Source of the DNA: a bacterium | Lineage (GTDB): Bacteria; Patescibacteriota; Minisyncoccia; Phycocordibacterales; Zambryskibacteraceae | Reading direction: 5' to 3' | DNA length: 64,000 nt | Assembly: GCA_030649135.1 (NCBI GenBank) | Contig: JAUSGI010000006.1 | Span: 43,534-107,533, forward strand | Part shown: positions 1,673-59,283 of the stretch, piece by piece | Layout of the letters: each line of letters starts with the position of its first letter | How positions within the stretch are numbered: position 1 is the first letter of the stretch | Made by a program: the position numbers and the translations under genes | The notes under the pieces: model-generated | The model's database searches: none | What the model was told of the DNA's origin: nothing | What the model saw: the letters and a program-made list of their open reading frames with translations, nothing else

Positions 1673-3544
1673 TTATTTTTTAGCTTTGGCACGAAGCACT
1701 TTTGGTGTAATGACAATGCGTGATTCGTTGCCGTAAATATCCAAAAATACGAGCATGACATCACCTTTAATTTCTTTGGTGGGTAGCTCTATTTTCCACT
1801 TGTTATCTTTTATCGCGCTCGCGTAAAACGCTTTATCCAAATCAAATACCTTTCCGTTGTAATCGTAATCTACCATCACCATTGAAAGCGCGTCGTGCTT
1901 GCTAATTTTATCCTCTCCGCGCAGTCGCGCCTTGCTCTCAAACTTCTTTATTTTAACAGACACGGCTTGTTTCTTTGCGGCAAGCTCAAGCTCAACTACC
2001 GGCGGCTGGATAAAATCAAAACCCACCGCCTCAACGGTTTCGTTGATAGCCATTTCGTCGTTTGGCTGAACGAGCGCGGAAAATTTACGTCGGTGCAGTT
2101 CGTTGATAAAAGAATACGGAATACGAAGCGCGTAATATCGCACACCGTCCATTTCGAGATAATCCTCTTGGAAAAGGAACGCGCCGCGCGGAGCAATAAT
2201 AAAGCAACGATCTCCAACGGCTTTTCCAATGCTTGCGTGCAAGTCTGCTATTGTCTGCTGGCTAATCTGTCCTTCCTTAAAATGATTGAAAACATGAACG
2301 CTTGAACCTTGTCGCTTGCCATCCATTTGGAAGCCATGAATTTTGTGTGGCTCGTCTTTGCACTCAAAAAGCTGGAGCGCAAAAAATCGCCAATCTTCCC
2401 ACGGCAAATTTCTCAAATTCTCAAAATCATACAAACCAGCGTTATAAAGTGTGAACGGCTTGGCGGCAAGCGACTCACCAGTATTGCTGATATTTTTGCG
2501 TAAAGTTAGCATTCGTTTTTGAATGGTATAAACTGCGAGCTTACTTACATCAATTGCAATCCAGCGTCGCTCTAACTTTTCGGCTGTCGCGGAAGTCGTT
2601 CCCGAACCCGCAAAAACATCCATAACAATATCACCTTTATTTGAGGAAGCTTCAATAATGCGCTTAATCAATGCCTCTGGTTTCTGTGTCGGAAAATCAA
2701 CTCGCTCTTTTGAATCCGCCTCTGTACCTAAAGGATAAATATCTTCCCAAACATCCCTACATACAGAATTGTGATACCACTTTTGTTTGTCTTTATCGAA
2801 AAATTCAGGATATTTTTCACTAAAGTTATATTTCTTTTGCTGATACGATTTGTAGTATTGTGTGTTAAAAAGAAAATTACCGTTTTTTGCGTAGTAATAA
2901 ATATTATCGTGTTTTCTGGCAAAGAAATTTTTACTTACACCACCAGTCCTATAACTCCAAATAATCTCATTTATAAAATTTTGTTCTCCAAAAATTTCAT
3001 CCATTAAAACTTTTATGTAATGGCCTTTCCTATAATCAAGATGCACATAAATTCCACCATCATTTGCGAGTAACTCTTTTAAAAGAATAAGCCTCTTTCG
3101 CATAAATTCTAAAAATGCGCTGCCAGCAATTTTATCTTGATATGCTTTTTGATCTTGGCTTCCTTTGAAATCTCGCCGTGTTGAAAATGGTGGATCAATG
3201 TAAATAAGCCGAACGCCCGGCGTGCCGTCGGCGTTCACCAGCTTTCCATCTGCTTTCATTTGCAAAAGCGTCTTTATAGCCTGCAAATTGTCGCCAAAAA
3301 TAAGTTTGTTGTGCCAATCAACCCCGTTCTGTCCAAAAGTGCTGACTTCTTGAAACGGCACAGCCATTGTGTCGGCGAGAATTTGCTCCTCGGTTTCTTT
3401 GCCGTTGTAGACAAGTTCGTACTCGCGGCGTTCGGGCGGAAAAAACTCTCGCGCCCACTCTGCCGGAAGTTCCTCGCCGGTTTCGGTCAGCTTGAGTCCT
3501 CGTTTTAGCAACTCGTATATCTTTTCTTGACGACGTTTGTCCAT
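1673..3544 (-). CDS. mod: Type III R-M Mod subunit (beta-class N6-adenine DNA methyltransferase)
   Basis: 623 aa ORF. Motif IV IYIDPPFS (DPPF) precedes motif I VMDVFAGSGTT (FxGxG), the beta-class order typical of Type III Mod proteins. Immediately upstream of the res-like gene on the same strand. Confidence 0.85.
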   Translation of the reverse strand: MDKRRQEKIYELLKRGLKLTETGEELPAEWAREFFPPERREYELVYNGKETEEQILADTMAVPFQEVSTFGQNGVDWHNKLIFGDNLQAIKTLLQMKADGKLVNADGTPGVRLIYIDPPFSTRRDFKGSQDQKAYQDKIAGSAFLEFMRKRLILLKELLANDGGIYVHLDYRKGHYIKVLMDEIFGEQNFINEIIWSYRTGGVSKNFFARKHDNIYYYAKNGNFLFNTQYYKSYQQKKYNFSEKYPEFFDKDKQKWYHNSVCRDVWEDIYPLGTEADSKERVDFPTQKPEALIKRIIEASSNKGDIVMDVFAGSGTTSATAEKLERRWIAIDVSKLAVYTIQKRMLTLRKNISNTGESLAAKPFTLYNAGLYDFENLRNLPWEDWRFFALQLFECKDEPHKIHGFQMDGKRQGSSVHVFNHFKEGQISQQTIADLHASIGKAVGDRCFIIAPRGAFLFQEDYLEMDGVRYYALRIPYSFINELHRRKFSALVQPNDEMAINETVEAVGFDFIQPPVVELELAAKKQAVSVKIKKFESKARLRGEDKISKHDALSMVMVDYDYNGKVFDLDKAFYASAIKDNKWKIELPTKEIKGDVMLVFLDIYGNESRIVITPKVLRAKAKK

Positions 3545-3792: not shown

Positions 3793-4149
3793 ATGGACGA
3801 AAAAGCAGAAAATAAAAATGATAAGCCGATTCTGTCGAAGACGAAAAAGGTTATCATATTGGCTCTTGCCATAACTTTTTTTGTATTCTCCATATTCAAT
3901 GTATATTTAGAAATTCGCAGGCAATTTATGTGTAGTCAGATGGTACTTCTTAATGCACAAATCCCGCCCTCCGACATTGATAGTTACATCTTGAGAAAAG
4001 AGGCTTTTGAAAATGTTTGCCTTGAAAGAACTGGACTTGGAAGTTACTTTTGGGCATTCGCTAGTTTCTGGTTTCTCGGCTATGTGATAACTTTTTTCGG
4101 CAAACATCCAGAAAAAGTACAAGCTAAGGATAACGGCATTGCTTCTTGA
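3793..4149 (+). CDS. hypothetical small membrane protein
   Basis: 118 aa ORF with two hydrophobic segments; no recognised motif. Confidence 0.35.
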   Translation: MDEKAENKNDKPILSKTKKVIILALAITFFVFSIFNVYLEIRRQFMCSQMVLLNAQIPPSDIDSYILRKEAFENVCLERTGLGSYFWAFASFWFLGYVITFFGKHPEKVQAKDNGIAS

Positions 4150-4179
4150 CCTTTCATCTGATAAGCGTATCGTAAGTTT

Positions 4180-4626
4180 ATGAGAAAATATGTCTTTATT
4201 GCGCTTTTTACATATACATTCATCCCATTAGCAGTCAGTGCCCATCCTGGCAACACAGCTTCTGATGGATGCCACTATTGCAGGACAAATTGTGATAAAT
4301 GGGGTGTCGCATGGAATGAAAGGCATTGTCATGCTTCTAAGGGTGTCCCCCAACCTACGGAACCTATAAGAAGTATTCGGGGAGAGGTTAGAGGAACTGC
4401 GGTACCGGCACCTGAGTATCAGACCTATATACCTAAGGCTTCCATTCCTGTTAGTGAGCCAGCCAAAGCTTTAAAGGAGATTAAAACTCAGGTACAAAAG
4501 AAGACATCAGCACCAGTTAATAATCAAGTAGTGGGAACATCAACGTCGTCCAAAGATATTGTTCCAATATCTCAACCGAAGCCACAACAGAAGAAAAGCT
4601 TTTGGGCTAGATTCTTTGGCAGGTAG
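4180..4626 (+). CDS. hypothetical secreted protein
   Basis: N-terminal signal-peptide-like MRKYVFIALFTYTFIPLAVSAHPG, Cys-containing N-domain, Pro/Gln/Ser-rich low-complexity C-terminal half. Confidence 0.45.
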   Translation: MRKYVFIALFTYTFIPLAVSAHPGNTASDGCHYCRTNCDKWGVAWNERHCHASKGVPQPTEPIRSIRGEVRGTAVPAPEYQTYIPKASIPVSEPAKALKEIKTQVQKKTSAPVNNQVVGTSTSSKDIVPISQPKPQQKKSFWARFFGR

Positions 4627-4774
4627 TATATTTATCTACTGCTTGGGTTGAAATTCATTTTTTAGCTTTCCTTAAACTTTCTCAGCTTCTTCCACTTTTC
4701 TCATAGCTCTAATTAACATTAACCTTTGAGCCATTTGTTGCATATATTCTCGGTTTAAAAGGAGCGGTATATGA

Positions 4775-5200
4775 ATGCTATACTTGGGGAGCCCGAATAA
4801 AATGTCTTACCCTAGAGGATATATAAATAAGGAATTAGAGAAAGAGATCGATAGGTATGGTGATGAAAGTCCAAATAGTCATTTGGGACCTTCCTACTAC
4901 GCAAGAGCTTCACTTGGATTAACTGAATTAGAAAGAAGGAGCACAAAGAAAATAAATATGTTCTCTCTTTCTATAAGTACGCTTGCCTTAGTCTTTTCAT
5001 TTTTAGCAGTTAAATACTCGGCAGAGCAAGCTGAATATTCAAGAATTCAAAGCGGTCCAGAACAAGTAAATCTGGCTCGTGCCATAAAACAGGCATTAGA
5101 ATTTTGTAAGAACCAAAGAGAATGGGAACCTACAAGTCTGATGAATACCTCATCAGGAGAACAGATGACGTGTTCAGAAGTGTTAAAATCATATAAATAA
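4775..5200 (+). CDS. hypothetical protein with one predicted TM helix
   Basis: 141 aa ORF; its stop overlaps the next start (TAAATG). Confidence 0.35.
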   Translation: MLYLGSPNKMSYPRGYINKELEKEIDRYGDESPNSHLGPSYYARASLGLTELERRSTKKINMFSLSISTLALVFSFLAVKYSAEQAEYSRIQSGPEQVNLARAIKQALEFCKNQREWEPTSLMNTSSGEQMTCSEVLKSYK

Positions 5201-5584
5201 ATGAAGACAATCTTAGTTGATGCTGTAGATTGTTTCGTTTCAGATACAGGAGAGATTTATAATGAAATGCACGATCTTCTTGAGACCTACCCTAACAAGA
5301 AGATTATTCTTACTGGTGCAAATGATGAGCAATTTCAGAAATTCGGCTTAGACAAGATGCCTTATGAGGTATTTACCCTAAAGCATAGTCCTGAAAAAAC
5401 AGACCCTTCCTATTATGTAAAGATGCTTGAGAACTTTGGATTAGGTAAGGAAGAGGTTATCTACTTTGAACACAACCCTGAAGCAGTTAAGAGCGCTCAA
5501 TCTGCTGGAATAAAATCTTATTTCTTTGATTACGATAAGAAGGACTTGGCAAGCCTAAAAATATTCTTAGATAAAGACCTGTAG
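5201..5584 (+). CDS. HAD-superfamily-like small hydrolase (possibly degenerate)
   Basis: Pattern ILVDAVDCF...ILTGAND...YFEHNPEAVKSAQSAG resembles HAD motifs I-IV, with substitutions at the catalytic Asp positions. Confidence 0.35.
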   Translation: MKTILVDAVDCFVSDTGEIYNEMHDLLETYPNKKIILTGANDEQFQKFGLDKMPYEVFTLKHSPEKTDPSYYVKMLENFGLGKEEVIYFEHNPEAVKSAQSAGIKSYFFDYDKKDLASLKIFLDKDL

Positions 5585-5590
5585 ATAATA

Positions 5591-5893
5591 ATGGGATATC
5601 TAATTCTTATCTTTTTCTTTGGAATCATACCGTCTATATTGTTATTGTATTTCGCGAGAAATTATTTTAATTGGAAAGCATTCGGCATTACAGTCTTTAT
5701 AGTATTTGTAGCGGCTTTTATCAGTGACTATATCGGAATTGAGAAAGAACTGTGGACCTATGGCATCAGTGGTACACAAACAATTGGTAAAACCGTCTTT
5801 GGCGTCCCAATAGAAGATTTAATATTCTTCCTCACAATTCCCCCATGGATTATTGGTAGCTACGAGTTATTGAAAGCTAAGTTTTCAAGATAG
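5591..5893 (+). CDS. hypothetical membrane protein (3 TM)
   Basis: 100 aa hydrophobic ORF. Confidence 0.4.
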   Translation: MGYLILIFFFGIIPSILLLYFARNYFNWKAFGITVFIVFVAAFISDYIGIEKELWTYGISGTQTIGKTVFGVPIEDLIFFLTIPPWIIGSYELLKAKFSR

Positions 5894-5999
5894 ACAGGTT
5901 TAATAAATACCCTTGCATGGTAATCGAGACCCATGGTCGCTGATTAATTTGACTTAATTTTATAATGTGTTATCGTCTACCCTAGAAAGGGGTGTCCGA

Positions 6000-6368
6000 A
6001 TGCCTAAGTCAGCAGGTAGAGAAAAGAAGCTGGTAGTGTACGGGCAGACCTTGCAGAAAGCTCGACTCTCCTCAGGCATACTCAACCAAAAGCAAGCAGC
6101 CTCCCGCCTAACAGATGGTGGGCTACAGTGCTCTCAGCCTCTTATCGCTCAACACGAGACTGGCCGGATAGTGGATCCTTCGCTAAATTTTTTGAAGGCC
6201 ATTGCAGCTTTGTACGAAGTTGACTACCGAGACCTGGTCGCTGTACTCGTGATGGATAAGTACGGTGTCGATTTCACCTCTGGAGAGAAGCCTCGGAACT
6301 TGCTGATCCAGCTCGTGGAAAAAAATCTGGAGGAGTTGCAAAAGGAGCTTGCCAGGCTCAAGAAATGA
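6000..6368 (+). CDS. XRE-family helix-turn-helix transcriptional regulator
   Basis: MPKSAGREKKLVVYGQTLQKARLSSGILNQKQAASRL...SQPLIAQHETGR fits the HTH_XRE pattern. ATG at 6000 follows a purine-rich aaagggg. The track's longer ORF starts at GTG 5967. Confidence 0.6.
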   Translation: MPKSAGREKKLVVYGQTLQKARLSSGILNQKQAASRLTDGGLQCSQPLIAQHETGRIVDPSLNFLKAIAALYEVDYRDLVAVLVMDKYGVDFTSGEKPRNLLIQLVEKNLEELQKELARLKK

Positions 6369-11657: not shown

Positions 11658-12401
11658 ATGTACTATCAGCTTCTCTTGGTGTTCGGTGTCGCAATGCTCT
11701 TGTCACAAGTGGCCGTGCTCGCGACGACCATCCAACTGCATCGTGCCGCAACACATGCAACGCTTGGAGGGCTCGTCCTCGATCCGAAGGTTGCATGGGC
11801 ATGCAATCTCATCCTGTGGATTACCACTGGTCAGAGGAGGAGGCAGTGGGTGGCCGTGCACCGCAAGCACCACGTCTTCACAGACAAGGTGGGTGACCCG
11901 CACAGCCCACGCGTGCTCGGCTTCTGGCATGTCCAACTCGGCAACGTCTTTTACTATGTGTGGGCGCTGAGGGAGAAAGATATCCTGGACAAGTACGCTC
12001 CCGATATCCAGGAAGACAAGTGGGACCGGTGGCTCTTCAACCACGGCAAGCTTGGTCTCCTGCTAGGAACGGTAGCACTCTGCTCGCTCATGGGCATGTG
12101 GTGGGGACTGCTCACGGCACTAATTCATGCCGTGACATACATCTTCGTCATCGCCTCCTCCATCAACGGCCTGTGCCACACCTACGGCTACAGGAACTTC
12201 GATAACACAGCGACTAATCTGCGTCTCCTCGCGTGGATCACCGGAGGCGAAGGGTTGCACAACAACCATCACGAATACCCAACTCGTGCGAAGTTCAGTT
12301 TCTTCCCGGGCGAGTGGGACCCAGGGTGGTCGATCATCAAGCTTTTGATCAGAGTCAACCTGGCCACCATGAAGAAGACCCTTTGGACAGTCCCGAGGTA
12401 A
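11658..12401 (+). CDS. membrane fatty-acid (acyl-lipid/acyl-CoA delta-9-type) desaturase
   Basis: Three histidine boxes in order: HRAATH, HRKHH, HNNHH, with hydrophobic N-terminal helices. 247 aa. Local GC is clearly higher than the flanks. Confidence 0.75.
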   Translation: MYYQLLLVFGVAMLLSQVAVLATTIQLHRAATHATLGGLVLDPKVAWACNLILWITTGQRRRQWVAVHRKHHVFTDKVGDPHSPRVLGFWHVQLGNVFYYVWALREKDILDKYAPDIQEDKWDRWLFNHGKLGLLLGTVALCSLMGMWWGLLTALIHAVTYIFVIASSINGLCHTYGYRNFDNTATNLRLLAWITGGEGLHNNHHEYPTRAKFSFFPGEWDPGWSIIKLLIRVNLATMKKTLWTVPR

Positions 12402-13121: not shown

Positions 13122-14909
13122 ATGGAAATAAGGAATATAGCTATTATCGCGCACGTCGACCACGGTAAAACCACTCTTACCGACGCTTTGATGCGAGAGA
13201 CGGGAATGACGGGGGAGGGGGTAACGATGGACTCAAACGCTCTAGAACTGGAACGTGGTATTACCATTTATGCCAAAAATACCTCCATTTTTTACAAAGA
13301 TACGAAGATAAATATTGTCGATACTCCCGGCCACTCTGACTTCGGCTCGGAAGTGGAACGCGTCTTGCGCTCCATAGATACAGTCCTTCTGGTTGTAGAC
13401 GCGCAGGAGGGACCGATGCCTCAAACTCGTTTCGTTCTGAAGAAGTCACTCGAGCTCGGTTTGAAACCAATCGTAGTGATAAATAAAATTGATAAGCCGG
13501 CGGCCCGGCCGGAAGTGGCACATGAATTGGTGCTTGAACTCTTCCTGGAGCTGGGTGCCAACAATGAGCAGATTGAATTCCCCACCGTTTTCGCTATCGG
13601 TAGAGAAGGTGTTGCAAAGAAAAAGTTGACCGACGAATCAAAAGACCTAACCCCCCTACTCGATACTATTCTCGAACACGTGCCGCCCGCCGAGCAGAAA
13701 CTTGATGCACCTGCCCGTTTACAACCCTTTAACCTCGCTTACGATAATTTCCTCGGGCGTCTTGCTATCGCACGTATTTACGAAGGCACGTTGAAAAACG
13801 GCCAAAAAGTTTTTGTGAAAAAGCCGGATGGAGAAACTTACGCGGGAAAGATAAGCAAACTCTACACTTTCGAAGGCCTGAAAAGGAAAGAAGTTGCTGA
13901 AGCCGTGGCTGGAGATATTTGTATGCTCGCAGGACTGCCACAAATTTATATCGGTGACACTATCACGGCAAGCGAGGATACTCCGGCTCTGCCGGCTATT
14001 TCGGTCGATGAACCAACTATTTCTCTTAATCTTGTGGTAAACGATTCCCCTTTCGCCGGTCGTGTCGGTAAATTCGTCACCGGTCGCCAGATCCGTGAGC
14101 GCCTTGAACGCGAACTGGAAGTTAACGTTGGACTCAAGATAGATTTTTCCTCCAGTGAATTCATGACCGTCTACGGTCGGGGCGAACTTCATCTTGCTAT
14201 CCTTCTTGAGAATATGCGCCGCGAAGGATTCGAACTCCAAGTTTCGCAGCCGCATGTTTTGGAAAAAACAGAAAACGGCAACAGACTTGAACCCTTCGAA
14301 GAGGTGCTGATAGATGTGCCGGAACAAATGTCGAGTGCTGTTATCTCCAAGCTAACGGAGCGACGCGCCAGTCTTATGGATATGAAGACGGAAAATGGAC
14401 AGACTCGTATTACCTTTGAGGCGCCTACCCGCGGACTATTGGGGTATCGTAATCAATTTATTATTGATACTAAAGGTTTGGGCATTCTTTCCTCTCGCTT
14501 TACCGCGTTTAAACCATATGCCGGAGAGATGAAACATGAGAAGGGTGGCTCAATGATATCTATGGAGAACGGCAAAGCGCTCGCTTTCTCGCTCGATAAT
14601 CTACAAGACAGAGGGGTATTATATATCAAGCCAGCGGAGGAGGTATATGAAGGACAGGTTATCGGTAATACCTCAAAGGGTGAAGACCTTTATGTTAATC
14701 CAACTAAAGGTAAACAGCTCACCAACATGCGCGCTTCTGGTTCTGACGAAGGTATTTATCTGACCCCCGCTTACAAACTTGATATAGAACGAGCCATGGA
14801 GATTATGGGTGACGATGAATATATAGAAATTACTCCGGATGATGTCCGTCTCCGAAAAATCCTTCTGACACAACAGGCACGTTCAAAGGCTCAAAGAAAG
14901 ACTGTATAA
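13122..14909 (+). CDS. typA: translational GTPase TypA/BipA
   Basis: [24 protein letters not shown] (G1), DTPGHSDF (G3), NKIDK (G4). 595 aa, the typical BipA length and domain order. Confidence 0.9.
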
Positions 14910-14916: not shown

Positions 14917-15681
14917 ATGGCAAAACTTGATACGGGACCCTACAAAGGCGTCAGGGATTTTTATCCCGAAGATATGGCTATCGAGAACCATATCTTCAAA
15001 ACTTGGCGAGAAGTCGTCGAGAAAGCAGGATACCAAGAATATAGCGCTTCTATCCTTGAACCTACCGAAATTTATACCGAGAAATCGGGCGTAGAGATAA
15101 TCAATGAACAGACCTTCACTTTCACGGATAGAGGCGACCGGTCAGTTACTTTACGTCCAGAGATGACCCCTACTCTTGCACGCATGATTGCCGCGCGTCG
15201 TAGAAATTTGAAATTTCCCCTACGTTGGTACTCGATTCCCAACCTCTTTCGTTACGAACGTCCCCAGCGCGGCAGAAAGCGCGAACATTGGCAATTAAAT
15301 TGCGACCTCTTGGGTATCACCGGCATTGAGGCAGATATAGAAATTATCTCCCTTGCTTATAAAATTATGAAAGAATTTGGAGCCAAGGATGAAAATTTTG
15401 AAATCAGAATCAATAATTCCAATACAGACGACTTGAAAGAAATCGGGCCAAACATAGTCTACGACCCTACTTTGGCCAGAGGACAAACTTACTACACAGG
15501 AATAGTCTTTGAAATCTTTGATACTAACAAAGAAAACGGGCGTTCTATAGCCGGTGGCGGTCGATATGACAACCTCCTGGAAATATTTGAGGTAGATCCT
15601 ATACCGGCAGTTGGTTTCGGTATGGGCGATATAACCATTAACGACTTCCTCGAGACACATAAGTTAGGTCCTTATGCGTAA
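14917..15681 (+). CDS. histidyl-tRNA synthetase catalytic core without anticodon-binding domain (HisZ-like architecture)
   Basis: N-terminus MAKLDTGPYKGVRDFYPED; motif 2 FRYERPQRGRKREHWQLNCDLLG; motif 3 AGGGRYDNLLEIF...PAVGFGMG. Ends at 254 aa right after motif 3. Confidence 0.7.
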   Translation: MAKLDTGPYKGVRDFYPEDMAIENHIFKTWREVVEKAGYQEYSASILEPTEIYTEKSGVEIINEQTFTFTDRGDRSVTLRPEMTPTLARMIAARRRNLKFPLRWYSIPNLFRYERPQRGRKREHWQLNCDLLGITGIEADIEIISLAYKIMKEFGAKDENFEIRINNSNTDDLKEIGPNIVYDPTLARGQTYYTGIVFEIFDTNKENGRSIAGGGRYDNLLEIFEVDPIPAVGFGMGDITINDFLETHKLGPYA

Positions 15682-16249
15682 AATAGTTTTTGATATAGAA
15701 ACAAAAAACTTCTTCCAGGAGGTCGGTAAAAATGACCCATCCCTCTTGGACCTCTCCTTGGTTGCTATCTATGATTCCCTGACTGACTCGTATTCTTCGT
15801 ACTTGGAAGAAGAGCTGGGAAAACTCTGGCCGATACTCGAGCGGGCCGACATGCTCATTGGTTTTAATTCAGACCATTTCGACATTCCCCTACTTAATAA
15901 ATACTACCCGGGAGATTTGACAAAAATAAAGAGTCTAGATATTTTAAAAGAAATCAAAGACTCTTACGGACGCCGGATGCGCCTCGACCAGTTGGCGGAA
16001 GGAACACTTGGTAAAAATAAATCAGGCCACGGCGCAGATGCTACGGACTGGTGGAAGGCAGGCGATGTGGAAAGAGTCCGCGCCTATTGCCTAGATGACG
16101 TCAAACTCACTAAGGGACTCTACGACTACGCTCTTGCCAACAACAAACTTATATTCAAAGAAGGAGGTGCCCTCAATGAAATTAAACTGGACACTTCCGG
16201 ATGGGAAAAAGCCAACGACCACAAACTCACTTTCTCTCTGCCATTTTGA
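15674..16249 (+). CDS. DnaQ-like DEDD 3'-5' exonuclease
   Basis: Exo I FDIET, Exo II GFNSDHFDIPLL, and a C-terminal H...D/Y...D segment. Start overlaps the previous gene by 8 nt. Confidence 0.65.
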   Translation: MRKIVFDIETKNFFQEVGKNDPSLLDLSLVAIYDSLTDSYSSYLEEELGKLWPILERADMLIGFNSDHFDIPLLNKYYPGDLTKIKSLDILKEIKDSYGRRMRLDQLAEGTLGKNKSGHGADATDWWKAGDVERVRAYCLDDVKLTKGLYDYALANNKLIFKEGGALNEIKLDTSGWEKANDHKLTFSLPF

Positions 16250-16968: not shown

Positions 16969-18510
16969 CTAAACTCTTTCTTCAAGATACTTGAGGATAG
17001 CATACATCGCATAAGTATCTAAGCCGCAGTATTCTCGAAGATCATCCATTATTTTCTCTTTCTTATCCGAGTCTTTCCCGCGTAAAACAGTTTGCATCCA
17101 GACACGTTGTGCTTGCCCGCCTTCGGAAATATTGAGCTTTTTATAACTGAATTCCGGGAGAAGCGCCGGCAAGACCGACTTTATTGAAGCCTTGCCGAAG
17201 AAGTCTTTATCTACAAACCACCCTTTGGAAAATGGAATCATCAGGTCAACCATCCTTTCATTGACTCCCGCCAGAAACTTTTCATATTTGGGATGCATTT
17301 TCCCCATCTCTGTGTTTCTAGCTTTTTCAAAAGTCATGTACCAGGAAATGACAGAGCCTTTGGCATCCCGCCTGCTAGCGCCTGAGCTTAGCGATGGCGG
17401 GCAGGCAAAATCATTTTGGAGGTGTTCCAGGAGGGCCGGCACCGGGTCGGAATTATCCGTGTGCAAATACTCCTTCTGTCTCAGTTCCCCACCCGGTTTA
17501 TCCAGAATATGCAGAGAATATTGGAAAGGCACTTGCTGATATGGCCGATAACCATCAAAGGCCGGTATCACGCTTGCAAGAGTCTCATAATCCAAAAAAT
17601 ATAATGGGTACTCTAAATCGTTGAGAAAGGCTTTAATCTCTTCCTTGTTTATATGTTGTGTCCCGGACTTCATGGCTTCGACTTGCCGCAATTGTTTTTC
17701 CGTAAGAGGCCCATCAAGCGGAATGTCATCGAGAAGTTCTATGCCATTGTCTTCGAGCCACGCAATAGTCTTTACATCGGGACCGGCGAGTTTATAGATG
17801 CTGTACTTAGGAAACTCTCCTTTTATAGCTTGTACAATACTAAGCCACTCTTCTATCACGCCTGCATTCTGTTTGAGATGGCGCGGGGAGAGGTCAGGCA
17901 TCTTCTTTTCTTTCAATATCTCAAATGCTTTTTGGATATTCTCTTTTGTTTCCTCAATTATTTCTCGTACTTCCTCGGTCACATCTGTTTTTTCAGAAAT
18001 CAGAGCGGGATCAATCTCGCCCTGTCTTACATATTTATTATTGACATGCAGGACAAACATCTTGCGCACAGAAAGTCCCGCGCTCTCTAAAACGATAGTC
18101 TGGAACGCAAGGTCTGGGATATGTTCAGGTTTGACGCTGGTGGAAGATTTTATTTCGTAAAGGTCATAAGTTTTATCACCTGTTTTTTCCAAGACATCGA
18201 AAATAGAAGTAATATTATCGGCCTCTACCCTACCTTGTAGTATTACTTCCGTTCCCTTCTCAATTTCCTTAGCTGTAAGCTCCGGCAGAGCATAATACTT
18301 AGTGCCGCTGAATTCATTATCATTCTTGTAACCAAGCTTAGCCGCTTTAGGGAAAAGTTTTTCGGCATACTGTTCGAATAGAGACCCTTCGTCGAAAAGT
18401 GCCTGTAGACCCTCGTCCGGCACCGGCAACTTTTCTTTATCGAATTTCTTAAGCCACAACCACGCCGGGTGCTTCAGAAACATCATGAATTCTGATTTGG
18501 AGATAACCAT
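16969..18510 (-). CDS. protein with N-terminal PD-(D/E)xK-like and C-terminal DEDDy-like nuclease motifs (possibly DUF2779-like)
   Basis: N-terminal D...DLYEIKSST (D, ExK pattern). C-terminal YFLDYETL (DxE) and CGLDTYAMYAI (Yx3D). 513 aa. Confidence 0.5.
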   Translation of the reverse strand: MVISKSEFMMFLKHPAWLWLKKFDKEKLPVPDEGLQALFDEGSLFEQYAEKLFPKAAKLGYKNDNEFSGTKYYALPELTAKEIEKGTEVILQGRVEADNITSIFDVLEKTGDKTYDLYEIKSSTSVKPEHIPDLAFQTIVLESAGLSVRKMFVLHVNNKYVRQGEIDPALISEKTDVTEEVREIIEETKENIQKAFEILKEKKMPDLSPRHLKQNAGVIEEWLSIVQAIKGEFPKYSIYKLAGPDVKTIAWLEDNGIELLDDIPLDGPLTEKQLRQVEAMKSGTQHINKEEIKAFLNDLEYPLYFLDYETLASVIPAFDGYRPYQQVPFQYSLHILDKPGGELRQKEYLHTDNSDPVPALLEHLQNDFACPPSLSSGASRRDAKGSVISWYMTFEKARNTEMGKMHPKYEKFLAGVNERMVDLMIPFSKGWFVDKDFFGKASIKSVLPALLPEFSYKKLNISEGGQAQRVWMQTVLRGKDSDKKEKIMDDLREYCGLDTYAMYAILKYLEERV

Positions 18511-25018: not shown

Positions 25019-28000
25019 TATTTTGAGGATTATCCGGTTTCTTCTTTAACTCCACATCAAGTGCCAGGCCGCGAAGGTTATTTAAAAGCACATTAAACGA
25101 GGCCGGCAGATGCGGTTCCGGAATCTGCTCTCCCTTAACTATTGCGTCAAAAGCCGCGCTGCGACCTAAAATGTCGTCAGACTTGATAGTCAGCATCTCG
25201 CGGAGAGTATAGCTTGCTCCGTGGCCGAGAAGCGCCCAGACTTCCATCTCCCCGAAACGCTGGCCACCATTCTGCGCTTTACCTCCCAGAGGCTGTTGAG
25301 TGATGAGGGAATACGGACCGATGGAACGCATATGTATTTTGTCTTCGACCATGTGGTGAAGTTTAAGAATATACATGTAGCCGATAGCAATCTCTTGATT
25401 GAACGACTCGCCGGTGCGACCGTCGAAAAGTTTAACTTTGCCGGATTCTTTAAAGTTTGCCTTAACGAGTTCCTCCTTAATCTCATCCTCGGTCGCACCG
25501 GCGAAGGGCGGTACAATCGCTTGATAGTTAAGGGTATGCGCCGCAAGGCCAAGATGCATCTCCAAAATCTGCCCGAGATTCATACGGGAAGGCACTCCGA
25601 GAGGGGTCAGAATCACATCGATAGGAGTACCATCGGCCATATAAGGCATATCTTCAACCGGTAGAATTCTGGAGATAACACCTTTATTGCCGTGGCGACC
25701 AGCCAGTTTGTCGCCTACCGAGACGTTTCTCAATTGCGCCACTTGAATATGAATTTGTTTCAGAATCCCCGAATCGAGCTTGTCCCCTTTCTCGCGGGTA
25801 AAGACTTGTACCGATATCACCCGGCCCCGCTTGCCTCCTTCCATGCGCTTGGAAGTATCTTTGACATCGCGGGCTTTCTCACCGAAAAGAGAACGGAGCA
25901 GACGTTCTTCCGGAGTCAGTTGGGACTCGCCCTTGGGAGTAATTTTACCTACCAAAATATCGCCGGAACGAACTTCGGCTCCAACTCTGATGATGCCATC
26001 TTCGGCCAAGTTTTTGAGCTTGGATTCTCCAACATTCGGGATATCGCAAGTGGTCATCTCCGGCCCCAATTTAGTATCTCTGACATTTACAGTAAACTCC
26101 TCGATATGAATAGAGGTAAATTTGCTTTTCTCAACCAGGCGCTCGGATATAATGATGGCATCTTCGTAATTAGCTCCGGACCATGACATGAATGCCACCA
26201 AAACATTCTGCCCAATGGACATCTGCCCATTGGATGAAGAAGACGTGTCGGCCAAAACGGACCCTTTCTTCACCTTCTGCCCCAACTCGACTGAAGGTCT
26301 TTGGTGAAAAGTGGTAAAACCATTGGTCATGGAGAAATTTACCAAAGGAAACTTGTGGCTATTCCCCTTGTTGTCTTTTACCACCACCAACTTGCCATCC
26401 ACATAAGACACTACGCCATCTACGTTTGAGAAAACAATACGGCCGGTATCACGAATCGCTATTTCCTCGATACCGGTGGCCACCAATGGCACCTCCGGGA
26501 CAATGCAGGGTGTTGCCTGCTTCTGCATATTTGAACCCATGAGCGCGCGATTGGCATCATCGTGATTGAGAAACGGAATCATCGAGGTTGCAATCGAGAA
26601 GGCCTGGTTGGTCGCCACGTCCATAAAGTCAACATCATCGCGAGAACGGGTCTGAGGAGTGCCTTTGACGCGCACTTCCACCATATCGCTCACTATTTTA
26701 TCCGCCTCGATGGGCGTAGCTGCATGGGCAATAATCGAGTTTTCTTCCTCTAGGGCATTGAGATATTTAATTTCTCCGGTAATCTTGCCCGCCGAGACTA
26801 CTGCATAGGGAGTCTCAATCATACCGAACTCGTTGATGCGGGCGTAAGCGGCTAAACGCAGGATGAGACCAATGTTTGGACCCTCCGGAGTCTGAATGGG
26901 GCAAAGGCGACCATAGTGCGACGGATGAACATCTCGTACTTCGTAACCGGCGCGAGCACGATTGAGACCACCCGGACCAAGAGCCGAAACGGTACGGAGA
27001 TGTTCGAGTTCTTCAAGTGCATTGGTCTGTTGCATGAACTGCGAAAGTTGGTTGGTGGTGAAAAACTCTTTCATCCTGGCCTGGAGTGGTTTGGGGGAGA
27101 TGAATTGCACGGGCAAGGTGACGTCGGTATCGATGGTAGACATCCGATTCTGAATATTGCGTTTAATCTGGGCCATACCGACACGAATCTTCTGTTGGAA
27201 AAGTTCTCCCACGAGACGCACTCTTCGGGAACCCAAGTGGTCGATGTCATCTTCCTTCACACCCGGGGTGACATTGAGATAAATAATATGCGAGATGATA
27301 GATACCATGTCAGAAAGGGAGAGCGTGCGGCGTTCAATCTCTTTGGCGGTTTCTTTGATACCGAAACGGTTATTGAATCGAAAACGACCAACGCGAGAAA
27401 GGTCATAACGCTCCTTGTCGAAGATGGAGCGGACGAACTCACGGGCATTTTCCGCTGCTGCCAAGTCACCATCGCGCAAACGTTTGTGGATTTCTATGGC
27501 GGCCTCGTCGATAGTGGTTGTGTGGTCCTTGGCCAAAGTCTTCTCAAGATGATGCTTGGCGCCGGCCACGCCTTCAAAGAGAGCTGCAATCTTGTCGTTT
27601 GAGGTCACACCGAAAGCGCGTAGAAGAATAGTAATGGGAAATTTTCTCTTGCGGTCAATACGAACATAGATGGTGCCGTCCAAGTCGGTTTCCAGCTCAA
27701 TCCAAGCGCCGCGACTTGGGATAATTTTGGCACCGAAAGTTTTTTTACCTTTCAACTCTTGAGCTGTAAAAGAAACTCCGGTTGAACGAGCAAGCTGTGG
27801 CACCACTACACGTTCAATACCGGAGATGATGAAGGTGCCGTGCGTTGTCATGAGCGGAAAATCCGCCATGAAAATTTCTTGCTCCTTCTCGGTACCCATA
27901 ATCAGATTCTTGAGCCGTACTCGCACTTTCAAAGGTGCCTCGTAAGAGAGCTTTCTATCCTTGGCTATGTACTCGTCAAATTTCGGCTCTGCCAATTCAA

Positions 28001-28229
28001 AACTAACAAAGTCCAGCTGAAATTTTTTCTCGGAAAAATCTTTAATGGATGAGAATTCTTCGAAAACTTCTTTGAGACCTTTTTCAATCAACCACTTGAA
28101 TGACTCCACCTGCGAGACTACCAGATTCGGTGTCTCGGCTAAGGGTTTCCTAAATCGACCGAAATATTTTTTCGGTCGTACGGTTGGATTGATTAAGTTG
28201 GCAGATTTTCCCGATGGGGGTGTATCCAT
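25011..28229 (-). CDS. rpoB: DNA-directed RNA polymerase beta subunit
   Basis: 1072 aa; conserved beta-subunit blocks (PKKYFGRFRKP N-terminus, GEMEVWALLGHGA, GGQRFGEME). Overlaps rpoC by 8 nt. Confidence 0.95.
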   Translation of the reverse strand: MDTPPSGKSANLINPTVRPKKYFGRFRKPLAETPNLVVSQVESFKWLIEKGLKEVFEEFSSIKDFSEKKFQLDFVSFELAEPKFDEYIAKDRKLSYEAPLKVRVRLKNLIMGTEKEQEIFMADFPLMTTHGTFIISGIERVVVPQLARSTGVSFTAQELKGKKTFGAKIIPSRGAWIELETDLDGTIYVRIDRKRKFPITILLRAFGVTSNDKIAALFEGVAGAKHHLEKTLAKDHTTTIDEAAIEIHKRLRDGDLAAAENAREFVRSIFDKERYDLSRVGRFRFNNRFGIKETAKEIERRTLSLSDMVSIISHIIYLNVTPGVKEDDIDHLGSRRVRLVGELFQQKIRVGMAQIKRNIQNRMSTIDTDVTLPVQFISPKPLQARMKEFFTTNQLSQFMQQTNALEELEHLRTVSALGPGGLNRARAGYEVRDVHPSHYGRLCPIQTPEGPNIGLILRLAAYARINEFGMIETPYAVVSAGKITGEIKYLNALEEENSIIAHAATPIEADKIVSDMVEVRVKGTPQTRSRDDVDFMDVATNQAFSIATSMIPFLNHDDANRALMGSNMQKQATPCIVPEVPLVATGIEEIAIRDTGRIVFSNVDGVVSYVDGKLVVVKDNKGNSHKFPLVNFSMTNGFTTFHQRPSVELGQKVKKGSVLADTSSSSNGQMSIGQNVLVAFMSWSGANYEDAIIISERLVEKSKFTSIHIEEFTVNVRDTKLGPEMTTCDIPNVGESKLKNLAEDGIIRVGAEVRSGDILVGKITPKGESQLTPEERLLRSLFGEKARDVKDTSKRMEGGKRGRVISVQVFTREKGDKLDSGILKQIHIQVAQLRNVSVGDKLAGRHGNKGVISRILPVEDMPYMADGTPIDVILTPLGVPSRMNLGQILEMHLGLAAHTLNYQAIVPPFAGATEDEIKEELVKANFKESGKVKLFDGRTGESFNQEIAIGYMYILKLHHMVEDKIHMRSIGPYSLITQQPLGGKAQNGGQRFGEMEVWALLGHGASYTLREMLTIKSDDILGRSAAFDAIVKGEQIPEPHLPASFNVLLNNLRGLALDVELKKKPDNPQNNA

Positions 28230-28235
28230 AAAGTA

Positions 28236-28270
28236 AAAAAATTCAAAGCACGCCGTGACTATCCGTGCTT
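28236..28270 (-). terminator. hairpin plus U-tract between trmD and rpoB (terminator or attenuator)
   Basis: aagcacg / cgtgctt stem. On the minus strand it is followed by gaattttttt, which sits immediately 5' of the rpoB ATG at 28229. Confidence 0.45.
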
Positions 28271-28331
28271 ACCAAAAAATGATTAATCTATACTGAAACT
28301 CTTTCTACTGGCCGTAACTCAATCGTTCGGG

Positions 28332-29006
28332 CTATCTTACTCCAGTACCCTGTTTCCTGTCAAGCCCCCGTCTACCTTTTTTCCACACATCTATCTTGGC
28401 ACGGTGGCCGGAGAGAAGAACCTTGGGCACACGATATGATTTACCTTTGTATTTGAAAACTTCTGGACGTGTATAGACTTCGCTAGATGATATGCGCCTC
28501 TCCTCAACAGAATCAAAATTGCCCAAGACGCCTGAGACCTGGCGACTCATAACATCTACAATAACCATCGCCGGCAGTTCTCCTCCCGTCAGTATAAAAG
28601 GTCCAACTGATATTTCATCCATCTTGAAAATTTTCTTCACCCGAGCATCAATACCTTCATAGCGCCCACATACAATAATCACATTTTTATACTTCTTAGC
28701 TACTTTGGCTGCGTAAGTATTAGTAAATTGTGTGCCACTCGGGCTCAAAAATATTATTTTAGGCTTACCTCCAGCTTTGGCGACGGCTGAAGCAATAGCT
28801 TTCACCACCGGCTCTGCTTGGATAACCATTCCTGGGCCGCCGGCATATGGAGGCCTGTCTATTCTCTTGTTTTTATCCTTAACAAAATCCCGCGGGTTGT
28901 AAAAAAAAACTTTAATTTTTTTATCTTCTATGGCGCGCTTCAAAATCGACTCGCCTAAATACGAGTCAAATGCTTTAGGAAAAAGGGTGATGATGTGGAA
29001 ATGCAT
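28332..29006 (-). CDS. trmD: tRNA (guanine37-N1)-methyltransferase TrmD
   Basis: MHFHIITLFPKAFDSYL N-terminus; SPOUT-class TrmD motifs; 224 aa. Confidence 0.9.
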   Translation of the reverse strand: MHFHIITLFPKAFDSYLGESILKRAIEDKKIKVFFYNPRDFVKDKNKRIDRPPYAGGPGMVIQAEPVVKAIASAVAKAGGKPKIIFLSPSGTQFTNTYAAKVAKKYKNVIIVCGRYEGIDARVKKIFKMDEISVGPFILTGGELPAMVIVDVMSRQVSGVLGNFDSVEERRISSSEVYTRPEVFKYKGKSYRVPKVLLSGHRAKIDVWKKGRRGLDRKQGTGVR

Positions 29007-29037
29007 GAGTTAGGTTCTAGGGACTTGGGACTAGGTA
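29007..29037. repeat. left imperfect inverted repeat flanking the two-gene cassette
   Basis: gttaggttctagggacttgggactagg matches the reverse complement of 30340..30370 (gctaggttctagtggctagggactag) at about 24/27 positions. Confidence 0.35.
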
Positions 29038-29403
29038 CTAGCTTTTAAGATCTAGTTTCTTTACTAGACCCATGGTCATCTTAGAGACTTCAGCAAGAAG
29101 CCCGTTGATTTCAATATACTTCTGTTCAGGAAGAAAAGAAAGCTCCTTAGCAATCTCAATCTGAGTTTCCAATTCTGATGCCGAACCTAAAGCAATGCTG
29201 AGAAAATGCAGAAAATCCTTGGTCGTATGTCTACTTCGACCTTCTGCTATATTCGAAGGGATGGAAACGGCGGAACGGCGTATTGGAGAAGTAATCCCAT
29301 AAATCTCTGATTTGGGAAAATTTTCAGTTACCTCATATACGGCCTTGCAGAGTTGAATTCCTTTCTGCCAAACTGTTAAATCTTTATGAGAATAAATTGG
29401 CAT
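29038..29403 (-). CDS. four-helix-bundle protein of the 23S rRNA intervening-sequence / DGR Avd-like family
   Basis: Hallmark SNIAEGRSRHTTKDFLHFLSIALGSASELETQIEIA. 121 aa. Confidence 0.8.
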   Translation of the reverse strand: MPIYSHKDLTVWQKGIQLCKAVYEVTENFPKSEIYGITSPIRRSAVSIPSNIAEGRSRHTTKDFLHFLSIALGSASELETQIEIAKELSFLPEQKYIEINGLLAEVSKMTMGLVKKLDLKS

Positions 29404-29407
29404 TTGG

Positions 29408-38446: not shown

Positions 38447-38584
38447 AATAGCCTTGATACTATATTATGAAATCTTGATTTTCTCAATAAAAAGCGTATG
38501 ATGGGCGGGACAGCGGGTTGGAGGAGTAGTACCTCGACAGGCTCATAACCTGTAGGCATCCGTGCAAATCGGGTACCCGCAACA

Positions 38585-58718: not shown

Positions 58719-59283
58719 GAAAGTAGTAGTATTTGAAGGAATTGATGGTTCGGGAAAATCGACCCAAGCTCGCTTGCTATATTTTGCTCTTAAAAAAAGA
58801 AATATTTCTGCAGACTTATACCACTTCCCATCGGAGGGTATCATAGGAAAATTTGTTAGGAGTCTTTTGGAGAAGGAAGAATTTGACACTTTGGATTCAA
58901 AATCCCGTGCACTACTTACTGCTTCAGACTTTTACAGCCAATATCACAGGAGCAATAATGATTCGGATATGATTATATTTGACAGATATTTTCATTCCAG
59001 TTATGCATCTAACGATGCCTTAGACGAAGAGTGGATTAAGGCAATACATCAATATGCGCCAGACCCGGATATTGTTTTCTTTTTGGACGGAGAACCGAAA
59101 TCAATCAAAGAAAGGGATGGCATTGATTCCGGTGCAAAAAATGAAGCGAGGCAAAAAATGCTCAGCATTAGATATAAAAAGATATTTGAGAATATACCCA
59201 ATATCACCATCAATGCCAACAAAGATATTGAAACAACGCATCAAGAGGTGCTACAGACCGTTATTAAAAAATTAAATATATGA
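58696..59283 (+). CDS. tmk: thymidylate kinase-family (d)NMP kinase
   Basis: P-loop VVFEGIDGSGKST; FPSEG...IGKFVRSLL (compare TREPGGT...LAEKLRSLL); DRY motif IFDRYFHSSYA; LID-like region. Overlaps the upstream gene by 23 nt. Confidence 0.8.
   Translation: MSHMKKRKKVVVFEGIDGSGKSTQARLLYFALKKRNISADLYHFPSEGIIGKFVRSLLEKEEFDTLDSKSRALLTASDFYSQYHRSNNDSDMIIFDRYFHSSYASNDALDEEWIKAIHQYAPDPDIVFFLDGEPKSIKERDGIDSGAKNEARQKMLSIRYKKIFENIPNITINANKDIETTHQEVLQTVIKKLNI

What the first reader, a model, noticed from the sequence alone, without database searches (positions are those of the whole stretch)
14917..15681. Minimal histidyl-tRNA synthetase: catalytic core only (254 aa), no anticodon-binding domain, no hisG nearby
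All three class II motifs and the His-binding loops align with HisRS, and the N-terminus even begins MAK as in E. coli HisS. The protein stops right after motif 3 and has a shortened insertion domain. This architecture equals HisZ (the regulatory partner of ATP phosphoribosyltransferase), but no histidine-biosynthesis genes are adjacent, and reduced genomes usually lack that pathway. Either this is an unusually minimal functional HisRS relying on acceptor-stem/G-1 recognition, or a paralog with another role.
Basis: partly seen in the sequence, partly recalled or inferred. Interest (0 to 1): 0.5.

Follow-up and report, generated by a model that had tools for sequence, protein, structure and literature searches.

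The report
Domain-stripped histidyl-tRNA synthetase in Parcubacteria
This 254-residue gene is most likely the organism's own histidyl-tRNA synthetase reduced to its bare catalytic core, the end point of a natural series of domain losses in tiny-genome Parcubacteria; it is not the HisZ regulator that databases call it.

Summary
The ORF 14917-15681(+) is real: 254 aa, packed between typA and an exonuclease gene with no room for a decayed domain. It is a HisRS-type class II core of the archaeal/eukaryal subtype. The roughly 85-residue insertion domain is replaced by a short linker and the anticodon-binding domain (ABD) is absent. All ATP, histidine and tRNA acceptor-end contact residues are invariant.

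It belongs to a tightly conserved family (more than 100 clusters, 75-93% identity) in Zambryskibacteria-like Parcubacteria. PGAP names it HisZ, but it scores no better on the HisZ model than genuine HisRS does.

In 80 related genomes the homolog sits directly upstream of the same exonuclease gene. These homologs form an architecture series:
- 407-438 aa: full length
- about 360-400 aa: shortened insertion plus ABD
- 285-330 aa: no ABD
- 253-277 aa: neither domain

The catalytic core evolves no faster in the reduced forms. Closely related genomes carry different architectures at the same locus.

Best reading (about 0.7): it is the cell's working HisRS and recognises tRNA-His through the acceptor end only.

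Not testable here: whether a second hisS exists elsewhere in the genome, and what tRNA-His looks like. I found no prior description. It is a new variant of a known kind, of moderately high interest.

The parts
14917..15681 (+). Mini-hisS CDS: 254 aa, HisRS catalytic core only, with no insertion domain and no anticodon-binding domain
14941..14958 (+). N-terminal YKGVRD segment. K10 corresponds to T. thermophilus R7, which contacts the tRNA 5' end and the C68 phosphate. K10 is invariant in the family.
15028..15063 (+). Motif 1 region (GYQEYSASILEP), the dimer-interface motif of class II synthetases
   Evidence: the motif assignment rests on general knowledge of class II aaRS
15127..15144 (+). 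DRGDRS, the counterpart of the T. thermophilus 71-RGGR-74 loop that forms the G-1 pocket from the other subunit. G73 is invariant. Position 74 varies (D/G/E) in reduced and full-length orthologs alike.
15226..15315 (+). Motif 2 and its loop (WYSIPNLFRYERPQRGRKREHWQLNCDLLG). R112, E114, Q117, R120 and R122 are invariant. K121 is one of the substitutions specific to ABD-less forms (L in ABD-containing orthologs).
15412..15459 (+). Vestigial linker (NNSNTDDLKEIGPNIV) in place of the roughly 85-residue insertion domain
15472..15501 (+). HisA-type loop LARGQTYYTG. R188 corresponds to the catalytic R259 and Y192/Y193 to Y263/Y264. The 'RGQ[TA]YY' form goes with a short insertion, where orthologs with a long insertion have 'RGFDYY'.
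15541..15588 (+). Motif 3 (RSIAGGGRYDNLLEIF), with R216 invariant
15613..15678 (+). GFGMGD strand plus the conserved C-terminal helix/tail DFLETHKLGPYA. The protein ends at the position of the catalytic-domain/ABD linker.
15674..16249 (+). Downstream RNase-H-fold (DEDD-like) exonuclease gene. Its ATG overlaps the hisS stop by 8 nt. It follows the hisS homolog directly in most of the 80 related loci and serves as the positional-orthology anchor.
13122..14909 (+). typA/bipA, the upstream neighbour in many related loci and the second synteny anchor

Best explanation
The gene is the lineage's housekeeping histidine-tRNA ligase (a hisS ortholog) that has lost both appended tRNA-binding modules, the insertion domain and the C-terminal anticodon-binding domain.

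Proposed mechanism:
- The 254-aa core, presumably a class II homodimer, activates histidine with ATP to His-AMP using the intact motif 2, motif 3 and HisA-loop residues.
- It then transfers histidine to A76 of tRNA-His.
- It recognises the tRNA only through the acceptor end (G-1:C73, C74, A76). The contacts are the conserved motif-2 loop (E114, R/K115, Q117, R120, R122), the N-terminal K10 and the trans-subunit RG(D/G)R pocket.
- Extra positive charge acquired in ABD-less forms (L121 to K/R, X99 to K, E97 to S/G/N) may partly compensate for the lost binding energy.

Shown here: architecture, residue conservation, orthology, the architecture series, and interchange of architectures at one locus.

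Inferred: catalytic activity, the dimeric state, acceptor-only recognition, and that it is the only HisRS in the cell.
For: 1. HisRS identity. The hisS equivalog TIGR00442 is the top NCBIfam hit at 255.7 bits against 176.3 for hisZ. PDB sequence hits and Foldseek hits are led by HisRS; HisZ ranks about 50th.
2. Functional residues. All residues that contact ATP, histidine or the tRNA acceptor end in the T. thermophilus HisRS-tRNA complex (PMC4357726) map to identical residues. They are invariant in 22 mini, 15 ABD-less and 44 ABD-containing orthologs.
3. Positional orthology. In most of the 80 GTDB-genome loci, and in every architecture class, the homolog lies directly upstream of the same exonuclease gene. 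The gap after the core is about 300 nt when an ABD is present and about 0-30 nt when it is absent. Pfam confirms HGTP_anticodon in the 359-438 aa forms and its absence in the forms of 334 aa or less.
4. The hisS-model score falls stepwise with the domains lost: 347, 297, 266, 256 bits. The hisZ score stays near 170 for all classes.
5. No relaxation of selection. Core identity is 65.5% between ABD-less and full-length forms and 67.4% among full-length forms. Against L001, the mini gene (85%) is about as conserved as the exonuclease (86%). That lies between TypA and sigma-70 (90-91%) and DnaG and DsbA (75%).
6. Interchangeability. By flanking genes, {window, L001, L003, L017} group at 98% bootstrap and {L021, L027, L074} at 100%. 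Within each group the HisRS architectures differ (254 against 288 aa; 266 against 312-321 aa). These groupings appear in 0 of 200 replicates of the HisRS-core tree. ABD-less genomes are never monophyletic by flanks.
7. No assembly appears twice among the best 80 loci, although full-length relatives down to 44% identity are included.
8. Experimental precedent. An engineered E. coli catalytic-domain fragment (Ncat HisRS) and smaller urzymes retain activity (PMC3060492). T. thermophilus insertion-domain contact mutants keep most of their activity.
Against: - I could not search whole genomes of the carriers. A second, bacterial-type hisS elsewhere is not excluded, because the scan patterns were specific to this HisRS subtype.
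- No tRNA-His gene was found in the window or in any fetched locus. Its G-1:C73 status is therefore unknown.
- Both modules that clamp the tRNA in canonical HisRS are gone, and no natural HisRS of this kind has been assayed.
- The AF2 model is only moderate: mean pLDDT 65.7, and below 50 for residues 43-121.
- One class-c homolog carries an in-frame TAG in motif 3 in two independent assemblies. This shows that a broken hisS at this locus can persist in some populations.
- Monophyly of ABD-less forms in the core tree is weak: 44% bootstrap, falling to 6% without the discriminating columns.
Confidence: 0.7

Rival explanations
1. Neofunctionalised paralog. The carriers acquired a second, canonical (for example bacterial-type) HisRS elsewhere. 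The original hisS, freed from translation, lost its tRNA-binding domains and now uses histidine activation for another purpose, such as sensing, transfer to another acceptor, or dinucleotide-polyphosphate synthesis.
For: - Whole genomes could not be scanned. The genome scan used peptide patterns specific to this subtype ([RQ]D[FL]YPEDM, W[YF]SIPNLF) and would miss a bacterial-type copy.
- Losing both tRNA-binding modules is what one would expect of a protein that no longer binds a whole tRNA.
- A hisS homolog interrupted by a stop codon persists in two assemblies.
Against: - Residues that matter only for the tRNA acceptor end (K10, E114, Q117, R120, R122) remain invariant.
- The core shows no rate acceleration.
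- Architectures replace one another at the same locus in closely related genomes, including forms with and without the ABD.
- These genomes are small (complete chromosomes of 617-682 kb among the loci). From general knowledge, such genomes rarely keep redundant synthetases.
Confidence: 0.15
2. Core enzyme working with a trans-acting tRNA-binding partner. The partner could be a stand-alone ABD encoded elsewhere, or another tRNA-binding protein such as the co-transcribed exonuclease. HisRS would then in effect be a split or hetero-oligomeric enzyme.
For: - The exonuclease gene overlaps the hisS stop codon and is linked to hisS in most of the 80 loci.
- The C-terminal tail DFLETHKLGPYA is strongly conserved.
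Against: - An HMM of ortholog ABDs finds no stand-alone HisRS-type ABD in the 64-kb window or within 10 kb either side in 37 ABD-less loci. The only hits are ProRS C-termini.
- The three best of the 32 ABD-only 'proteins' in the public collection were inspected, and all three are fragments of interrupted full-length hisS genes.
- The hisS-exonuclease linkage is equally present for full-length HisRS, so it is not a compensation for ABD loss.
- The conserved tail overlaps the exonuclease start region, which may explain part of its conservation.
Confidence: 0.08
3. HisZ. The protein is the regulatory subunit of a short-form ATP phosphoribosyltransferase (HisG), as PGAP names it.
For: - It lacks the ABD, as HisZ does.
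- NCBI PGAP labels many members 'ATP phosphoribosyltransferase regulatory subunit'.
Against: - HisZ TIGR00443 gives 176.3 bits against a cut-off of 271.65. Genuine full-length orthologs give the same cross-score of 167-170 bits.
- All catalytic residues are intact.
- No hisG or other his gene is in the window ORFs scanned or in the annotated neighbourhoods.
- The gene descends in situ from hisS.
Confidence: 0.02
4. Decaying remnant: a truncated hisS pseudogene on its way to loss, or an assembly or gene-calling artefact.
For: - It fails the curated hisS cut-off, 255.7 against 286.75.
- Interrupted hisS genes do occur at this locus in some metagenomes.
Against: - More than 100 clusters of 253-258 aa from many samples have an intact frame, a mean column identity of 81% and invariant catalytic residues.
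- The same protein sequence is seen on up to 57 contigs.
- The boundaries are clean and the stop/start overlap with the next gene is conserved.
Confidence: 0.02

Closest known systems
Canonical archaeal/eukaryal-type HisRS (T. acidophilum 1WU7, Trypanosoma 3HRI/3HRK) and the full-length Paceibacteria orthologs (for example L041, 410 aa)
   Same: - Same catalytic core, with E=2e-62 to 1WU7.
- Same motifs 1-3, HisA loop and motif-2 loop residues.
- Same genomic position as the full-length orthologs.
   Different: - It lacks the roughly 85-residue insertion domain and the roughly 100-residue HGTP anticodon-binding domain.
- It carries substitutions specific to ABD-less forms: L121 to K/R, X99 to K, E97 to S/G/N, F132 to L/M, V87 to L, G/D226 to V.
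- The core net charge is about +3 higher.
HisZ (regulatory subunit of hetero-octameric ATP phosphoribosyltransferase; TIGR00443; PDB 1Z7M, 3OD1)
   Same: A HisRS-like class II core without an anticodon-binding domain.
   Different: - The HisZ models are far below cut-off, and their scores equal the cross-score given by true HisRS.
- All catalytic residues are retained.
- No hisG is in the context.
- HisZ is a separate, old paralog family, whereas this gene descends in situ from hisS.
Engineered E. coli HisRS catalytic-domain fragment (Ncat HisRS, residues 1-320) and HisRS urzymes (Francklyn and Carter laboratories; PMC3060492)
   Same: An ABD-less HisRS core that still activates histidine. This is the laboratory precedent that the appended domains are not strictly needed for chemistry.
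   Different: - Those are laboratory truncations with reduced activity.
- Ncat keeps the insertion domain.
- The gene here is a natural, strongly conserved form that lacks the insertion domain as well.
Natural pyrrolysyl-tRNA synthetases that lack the N-terminal tRNA-binding domain (about 270-aa catalytic-domain-only PylRS). This comparison is from my own knowledge and was not tested here.
   Same: A stand-alone class II catalytic core of about 250-290 aa that works on its tRNA without the usual appended tRNA-binding domain. PylRS cores appear as weak hits.
   Different: A different amino acid, tRNA and subclass. PylRS never recognises the anticodon, whereas canonical HisRS has a dedicated anticodon-binding domain.

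Membership tests
Histidine-tRNA ligase (HisRS; class IIa; PF13393 / TIGR00442) | Class II motifs 1-3 plus the HisRS-specific histidine-binding and catalytic loops (R259/Y263/Y264 equivalents, LRPE loop) | tested here: met
   Alignments to 1wu7, 3hri, 4rdx and 1adj show R112, E114, R120, R122, R188, Y192, Y193, E199 and R216 present and invariant in the family.
Histidine-tRNA ligase (HisRS; class IIa; PF13393 / TIGR00442) | Score at or above the curated hisS equivalog cut-off (TIGR00442, 286.75 bits) | tested here: not met
   The score is 255.7 bits. The shortfall tracks the missing domains: orthologs score 347.4 (full length), 297.3 (short insertion plus ABD) and 265.7 (no ABD).
Histidine-tRNA ligase (HisRS; class IIa; PF13393 / TIGR00442) | C-terminal HGTP-type anticodon-binding domain (PF03129) | tested here: not met
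   There is no PF03129 hit. The protein ends at the linker, and no ABD ORF is in the window.
Histidine-tRNA ligase (HisRS; class IIa; PF13393 / TIGR00442) | Insertion domain between motif 2 and the HisA loop | tested here: not met
   About 85 residues of 1wu7 (167-250) have no counterpart. In the ortholog alignment the window 160-186 region holds 26 residues in the mini form and 84-109 in most full-length orthologs.
Histidine-tRNA ligase (HisRS; class IIa; PF13393 / TIGR00442) | Orthology with bona fide hisS (same locus, same lineage of sequences) | tested here: met
   The same exonuclease gene lies directly downstream in most of the 80 loci and in all architecture classes. The sequences nest among full-length Paceibacteria HisRS.
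Histidine-tRNA ligase (HisRS; class IIa; PF13393 / TIGR00442) | Charges tRNA-His with histidine and is the cell's source of His-tRNA-His | not testable with these tools
   This needs biochemistry and whole-genome inventories. No tRNA-His was found in the reachable sequence.
HisZ (ATP phosphoribosyltransferase regulatory subunit) | Score at or above the curated HisZ model cut-offs | tested here: not met
   TIGR00443 gives 176.3 bits against 271.65, and all PRK12292-type models are far below cut-off. Genuine HisRS orthologs give the same 167-170 bits.
HisZ (ATP phosphoribosyltransferase regulatory subunit) | Genomic association with a short-form hisG and the histidine biosynthesis pathway | tested here: not met
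   No such genes are among the window ORFs scanned or in the annotated related neighbourhoods.
HisZ (ATP phosphoribosyltransferase regulatory subunit) | Loss of aminoacylation-competent active-site residues (this feature is taken from general knowledge of HisZ) | tested here: not met
   All catalytic and acceptor-end residues are intact and invariant.
HisZ (ATP phosphoribosyltransferase regulatory subunit) | HisRS-like core without an anticodon-binding domain | tested here: met
   This is the only feature shared with HisZ.

The most novel reading that the evidence does not exclude
These Parcubacteria translate with what may be, to my knowledge (not tested here), the smallest natural stand-alone aminoacyl-tRNA synthetase yet seen. 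It is a 254-aa HisRS core that reads only the acceptor end of tRNA-His.

Related genomes preserve a complete natural series: full length, then without the insertion domain, without the ABD, and without both. The alleles replace one another by recombination at one locus. That would be in-vivo evidence that both appended domains of a class II synthetase are dispensable, and it offers a ready-made system for testing models of synthetase domain accretion and of tRNA-His identity.
Probability: 0.6. Interest if true: 0.75.

Novelty: new variant of a known kind. Interest (0 to 1): 0.62.

Why it matters
- **Minimal-enzyme biology.** If the 254-aa protein is the working HisRS, nature has done the experiment that synthetase biochemists perform by truncation. 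Graded intermediates (about 410, 360, 310 and 254 aa) are available for direct kinetic comparison. This bears on how much of a modern synthetase is needed for specific tRNA charging. It also bears on the primacy of the G-1:C73 acceptor-end identity of tRNA-His.
- **Annotation and genome-quality scoring.** These proteins are misnamed HisZ by PGAP, which falsely implies histidine biosynthesis regulation in organisms that probably lack that pathway. They also fall below the curated hisS cut-off, so marker-gene completeness and phylogenomic pipelines that use TIGR00442 may score hisS as missing in this clade. That last point is my inference from the score and was not tested.

Tried and rejected
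- **Second hisS or hisG in the window.** Pfam scans of about 40 ORFs, plus tblastn and HMM searches of all six frames, found none.
- **Stand-alone ABD (split enzyme).** An ABD HMM run against the window and 82 loci hit only ProRS C-termini. A database-wide ABD-profile search returned only 32 short proteins. The three best were interrupted full-length hisS genes, two with in-frame stops and one with a frameshift. That search listed no full-length HisRS at all, so it was not exhaustive.
- **tRNA-His.** ARAGORN on the window and all loci, and Rfam on the window, found none.
- **Extending beyond the window.** Exact-protein look-ups of the window's edge genes found nothing. The only indexed contig for this exact protein is 12.8 kb.
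- **Single-origin story for ABD loss.** The NJ core tree suggested one clade. Bootstrap support is weak: 44%, or 6% without the discriminating columns. The flank tree contradicts it. I do not claim a number of loss events.
- **HisRS-exonuclease fusion proteins (P0306, P0103).** The sequences show a frameshifted read-through and an internal deletion. These are probably artefacts and not real fusions.
- **Structure.** The AF2 model from a shallow alignment is only moderate (pLDDT 65.7), so I used it only for fold assignment.
- **Literature.** Searches combining HisRS, hisS or HisZ with CPR, Parcubacteria or Patescibacteria found no description of this form.

Full report
**1.

ORF 14917..15681(+) encodes 254 aa. 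typA/bipA ends 7 nt upstream. The ATG of the next gene (15674) overlaps the stop codon (CTTATGCGTAA), so there is no space for a degraded C-terminal domain.

Pfam gives tRNA-synt_His at E=4.7e-42. The closest solved proteins are HisRS of Thermoplasma acidophilum (1wu7, E=2.3e-62) and of trypanosomes. Bacterial HisRS follows at about 1e-27 to 1e-31, and HisZ at 1e-17 to 1e-21.

The alignment comes in two blocks: query 4-169 to 1wu7 4-166, and query 175-246 to 1wu7 251-322. The roughly 85-residue insertion domain is therefore replaced by a short linker. The protein stops where the linker to the anticodon-binding domain (ABD) begins. A Foldseek search with a moderate AF2 model (pLDDT 65.7) also returns HisRS first.

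**2. It is HisRS-like, not HisZ-like**

The curated hisS model (TIGR00442) is the best NCBIfam hit at 255.7 bits, below its 286.75 cut-off. hisZ (TIGR00443) gives 176.3 bits against a cut-off of 271.65.

Orthologs that keep more domains score 347.4 (410 aa), 297.3 (363 aa) and 265.7 (315 aa) on the hisS model. All of them score about 167-170 on the hisZ model. The mini protein therefore fails the hisS cut-off only because domains are missing. Its HisZ score is the generic cross-hit that any HisRS gives.

**3. Functional residues**

I used the T. thermophilus alignment and the HisRS-tRNA-His structure paper (PMC4357726). The residues map as follows:

| T. thermophilus residue | Role | Mini protein |
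|---|---|---|
| R7 | 5' end / C68 | K10 |
| E114 | A76 | E114 |
| R115 | G-1 / G1 | R115 |
| Q117 | acceptor backbone | Q117 |
| R120 | C74 | R120 |
| R122 | G-1 phosphate | R122 |
| R112 | motif 2 arginine | R112 |
| R259 | catalytic | R188 |
| Y263/Y264 | histidine binding | Y192/Y193 |
| R287 | motif 3 | R216 |

- In a 27-member family alignment and an 81-member ortholog alignment these positions are invariant in all architecture classes. The exception is position 115, which is R/K/Q/A in every class.
- The trans-subunit G-1 pocket 'RGGR' reads RG(D/G/E)R in reduced and full-length orthologs alike, so it carries no signal.
- The insertion-domain tRNA contacts are gone. The same paper reports that their mutants keep most of their activity.

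**4. A conserved family**

More than 120 clusters at 90% identity, of 253-258 aa and 75-93% identical, occur in Parcubacteria/Zambryskibacteria-type MAGs. They are labelled either 'ATP phosphoribosyltransferase regulatory subunit' (PGAP) or 'Histidine-tRNA ligase'.

Between the window and locus L001 the protein is 85% identical. For comparison, TypA and sigma-70 are 90-91%, the exonuclease 86%, and DnaG and DsbA 75%.

An exhaustive HMMER search of 1.84 billion representatives shows that almost all relatives among the best 150 hits are about 400-450 aa. Short complete forms are confined to very few clusters.

**5. Positional orthology and an architecture series**

A scan of GTDB species genomes returned 80 loci, all from different Patescibacteria assemblies. 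ORF extents, Pfam and alignment give four classes:

| Class | Length | Insertion | ABD |
|---|---|---|---|
| (d) | 407-438 aa | full | present |
| (c) | about 357-400 aa | shortened (about 35-75 residues in the window 160-186 region; 84-109 in most full-length forms) | present |
| (b) | 285-330 aa | present | absent |
| (a) | 253-277 aa | absent | absent |

In most of the loci, and in every class, the same RNase-H-fold exonuclease gene follows directly. typA is often upstream, and dsbA, sigma-70 and dnaG are often downstream. The window gene is thus the positional ortholog of canonical hisS.

**6. No relaxation of selection, and interchange at the locus**

Core identity between ABD-less and ABD-containing forms is 65.5%. 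Among ABD-containing forms it is 67.4%.

A species-proxy tree from TypA, the exonuclease and sigma-70 conflicts robustly with the HisRS-core tree:
- {window, L001, L003, L017} has 98% bootstrap by flanks and 0 of 200 by core.
- {L021, L027, L074} has 100% by flanks and 0 of 200 by core.
- ABD-less genomes are never monophyletic by flanks.

Pairwise numbers:

| Pair | Flank identity | HisRS-core identity |
|---|---|---|
| L017 - window | 90.2% | 78.3% |
| L017 - L027 | 72.0% | 81.0% |
| L012 (254 aa) - L024 (359 aa with ABD) | 84.0% | 67.0% |

So closely related genomes carry different architectures at one locus. This could arise by allele replacement through recombination, or by repeated losses. 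I cannot decide between them, because ABD-less monophyly in the core tree has only 44% support. Either way the forms behave as functional equivalents.

**7. Possible compensation**

Six core columns separate ABD-less from ABD-containing orthologs:
- L121 to K/R, in the motif-2 loop
- position 99 to K
- E97 to S/G/N
- V87 to L
- F132 to L/M
- G/D226 to V

The core net charge rises from -7.3 to about -4.4. This is consistent with strengthened acceptor-stem binding, with a re-surfaced former ABD interface, or with both. That interpretation is inference.

**8. Rivals tested**

- No hisG, his genes or second hisS are in the window.
- No stand-alone ABD is in the window or the ABD-less loci.
- ABD-only 'proteins' in the public collection proved to be pieces of interrupted full-length hisS genes at the same locus.
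- No tRNA-His was reachable.
- Whole carrier genomes could not be searched, so a second, bacterial-type hisS elsewhere remains the main open rival.

**9. Mechanism proposed**

- Histidine is activated to His-AMP by an intact class II active site.
- tRNA-His is recognised through the acceptor end alone. From established knowledge of HisRS, G-1:C73 is the major identity set.
- Histidine is then transferred to A76.

Precedents:
- The engineered E. coli Ncat HisRS fragment and the HisRS urzymes (PMC3060492).
- Natural PylRS forms that lack an N-terminal domain (from my own knowledge).

**10. Novelty**

Six literature searches found nothing that describes HisRS without an ABD and insertion domain in CPR bacteria.

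I rate it a new variant of a known kind:
- About 0.7 that it is the working HisRS.
- About 0.15 that it is a repurposed copy alongside another HisRS.
- HisZ and pseudogene are essentially excluded.

Noticed in passing
window 15674-16249 (+); also downstream of the hisS homolog in L003-L082: An uncharacterised RNase-H-fold, DEDD-like exonuclease gene (weak Pfam RNase_H_2 / DNA_pol_B_exo2 hits, no PDB sequence hit, no NCBIfam hit). It sits immediately downstream of hisS in most of the 80 Paceibacteria loci, often overlapping the hisS stop codon. The hisS-exonuclease pair may reflect a functional link, for example tRNA 3'-end processing.
   Followed up: partly
L084 and L085 (hisS at about 3-902 and 2-862); L087; L086: Full-length hisS homologs at the canonical locus that are interrupted. 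In L084/L085 an in-frame TAG replaces the invariant motif-3 tyrosine (GGGR*DNL), identically in two independent assemblies. L087 has an in-frame TAA (GAA to TAA). L086 has a frameshift in GFGMGD. Possible readings are a pseudogene, stop-codon read-through, or a population variant.
   Followed up: partly
hisS locus across L001-L082 (typA-hisS-exo): The tree of the flanking genes and the tree of the hisS core are strongly discordant (98-100% against 0% bootstrap for the same groupings). This suggests frequent allele replacement or recombination at this locus among related Parcubacteria.
   Followed up: yes
proteins P0306 (440 aa), P0103 (400 aa), P0308 (290 aa): Apparent mini-HisRS::exonuclease fusion proteins in public collections. 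The sequences show a frameshifted junction (P0306) and an internal deletion (P0103). They are probably assembly or sequencing artefacts made easy by the 8-nt gene overlap.
   Followed up: partly
window 38512-38583 (+): ARAGORN calls a fifth tRNA here (tRNA-Met, CAT), divergent from the tRNA-Asp/tRNA-Met pair. Rfam's tRNA model does not report it at the gathering threshold.
   Followed up: no
window 11658-12401 (+): A fatty-acid-desaturase-family membrane protein (PF00487, 3.8e-14) in a Parcubacteria-type genome. This is unusual for organisms thought to lack lipid biosynthesis. Among the related loci only L017 shows a homolog.
   Followed up: no
window 16969-18510 (-): A 513-aa protein with a Cas4/PD-(D/E)XK-like N-terminal region and DUF2779. 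It is conserved next to dsbA in many related loci and has the opposite orientation in some.
   Followed up: no
window about 4000-6000, 28000-30000, 58000-60000, 62000-64000: G+C content dips to 0.375-0.41 against about 0.46-0.50 elsewhere. A 623-aa N6/N4 DNA methylase lies at 1673-3544. These stretches may be acquired islands.
   Followed up: no
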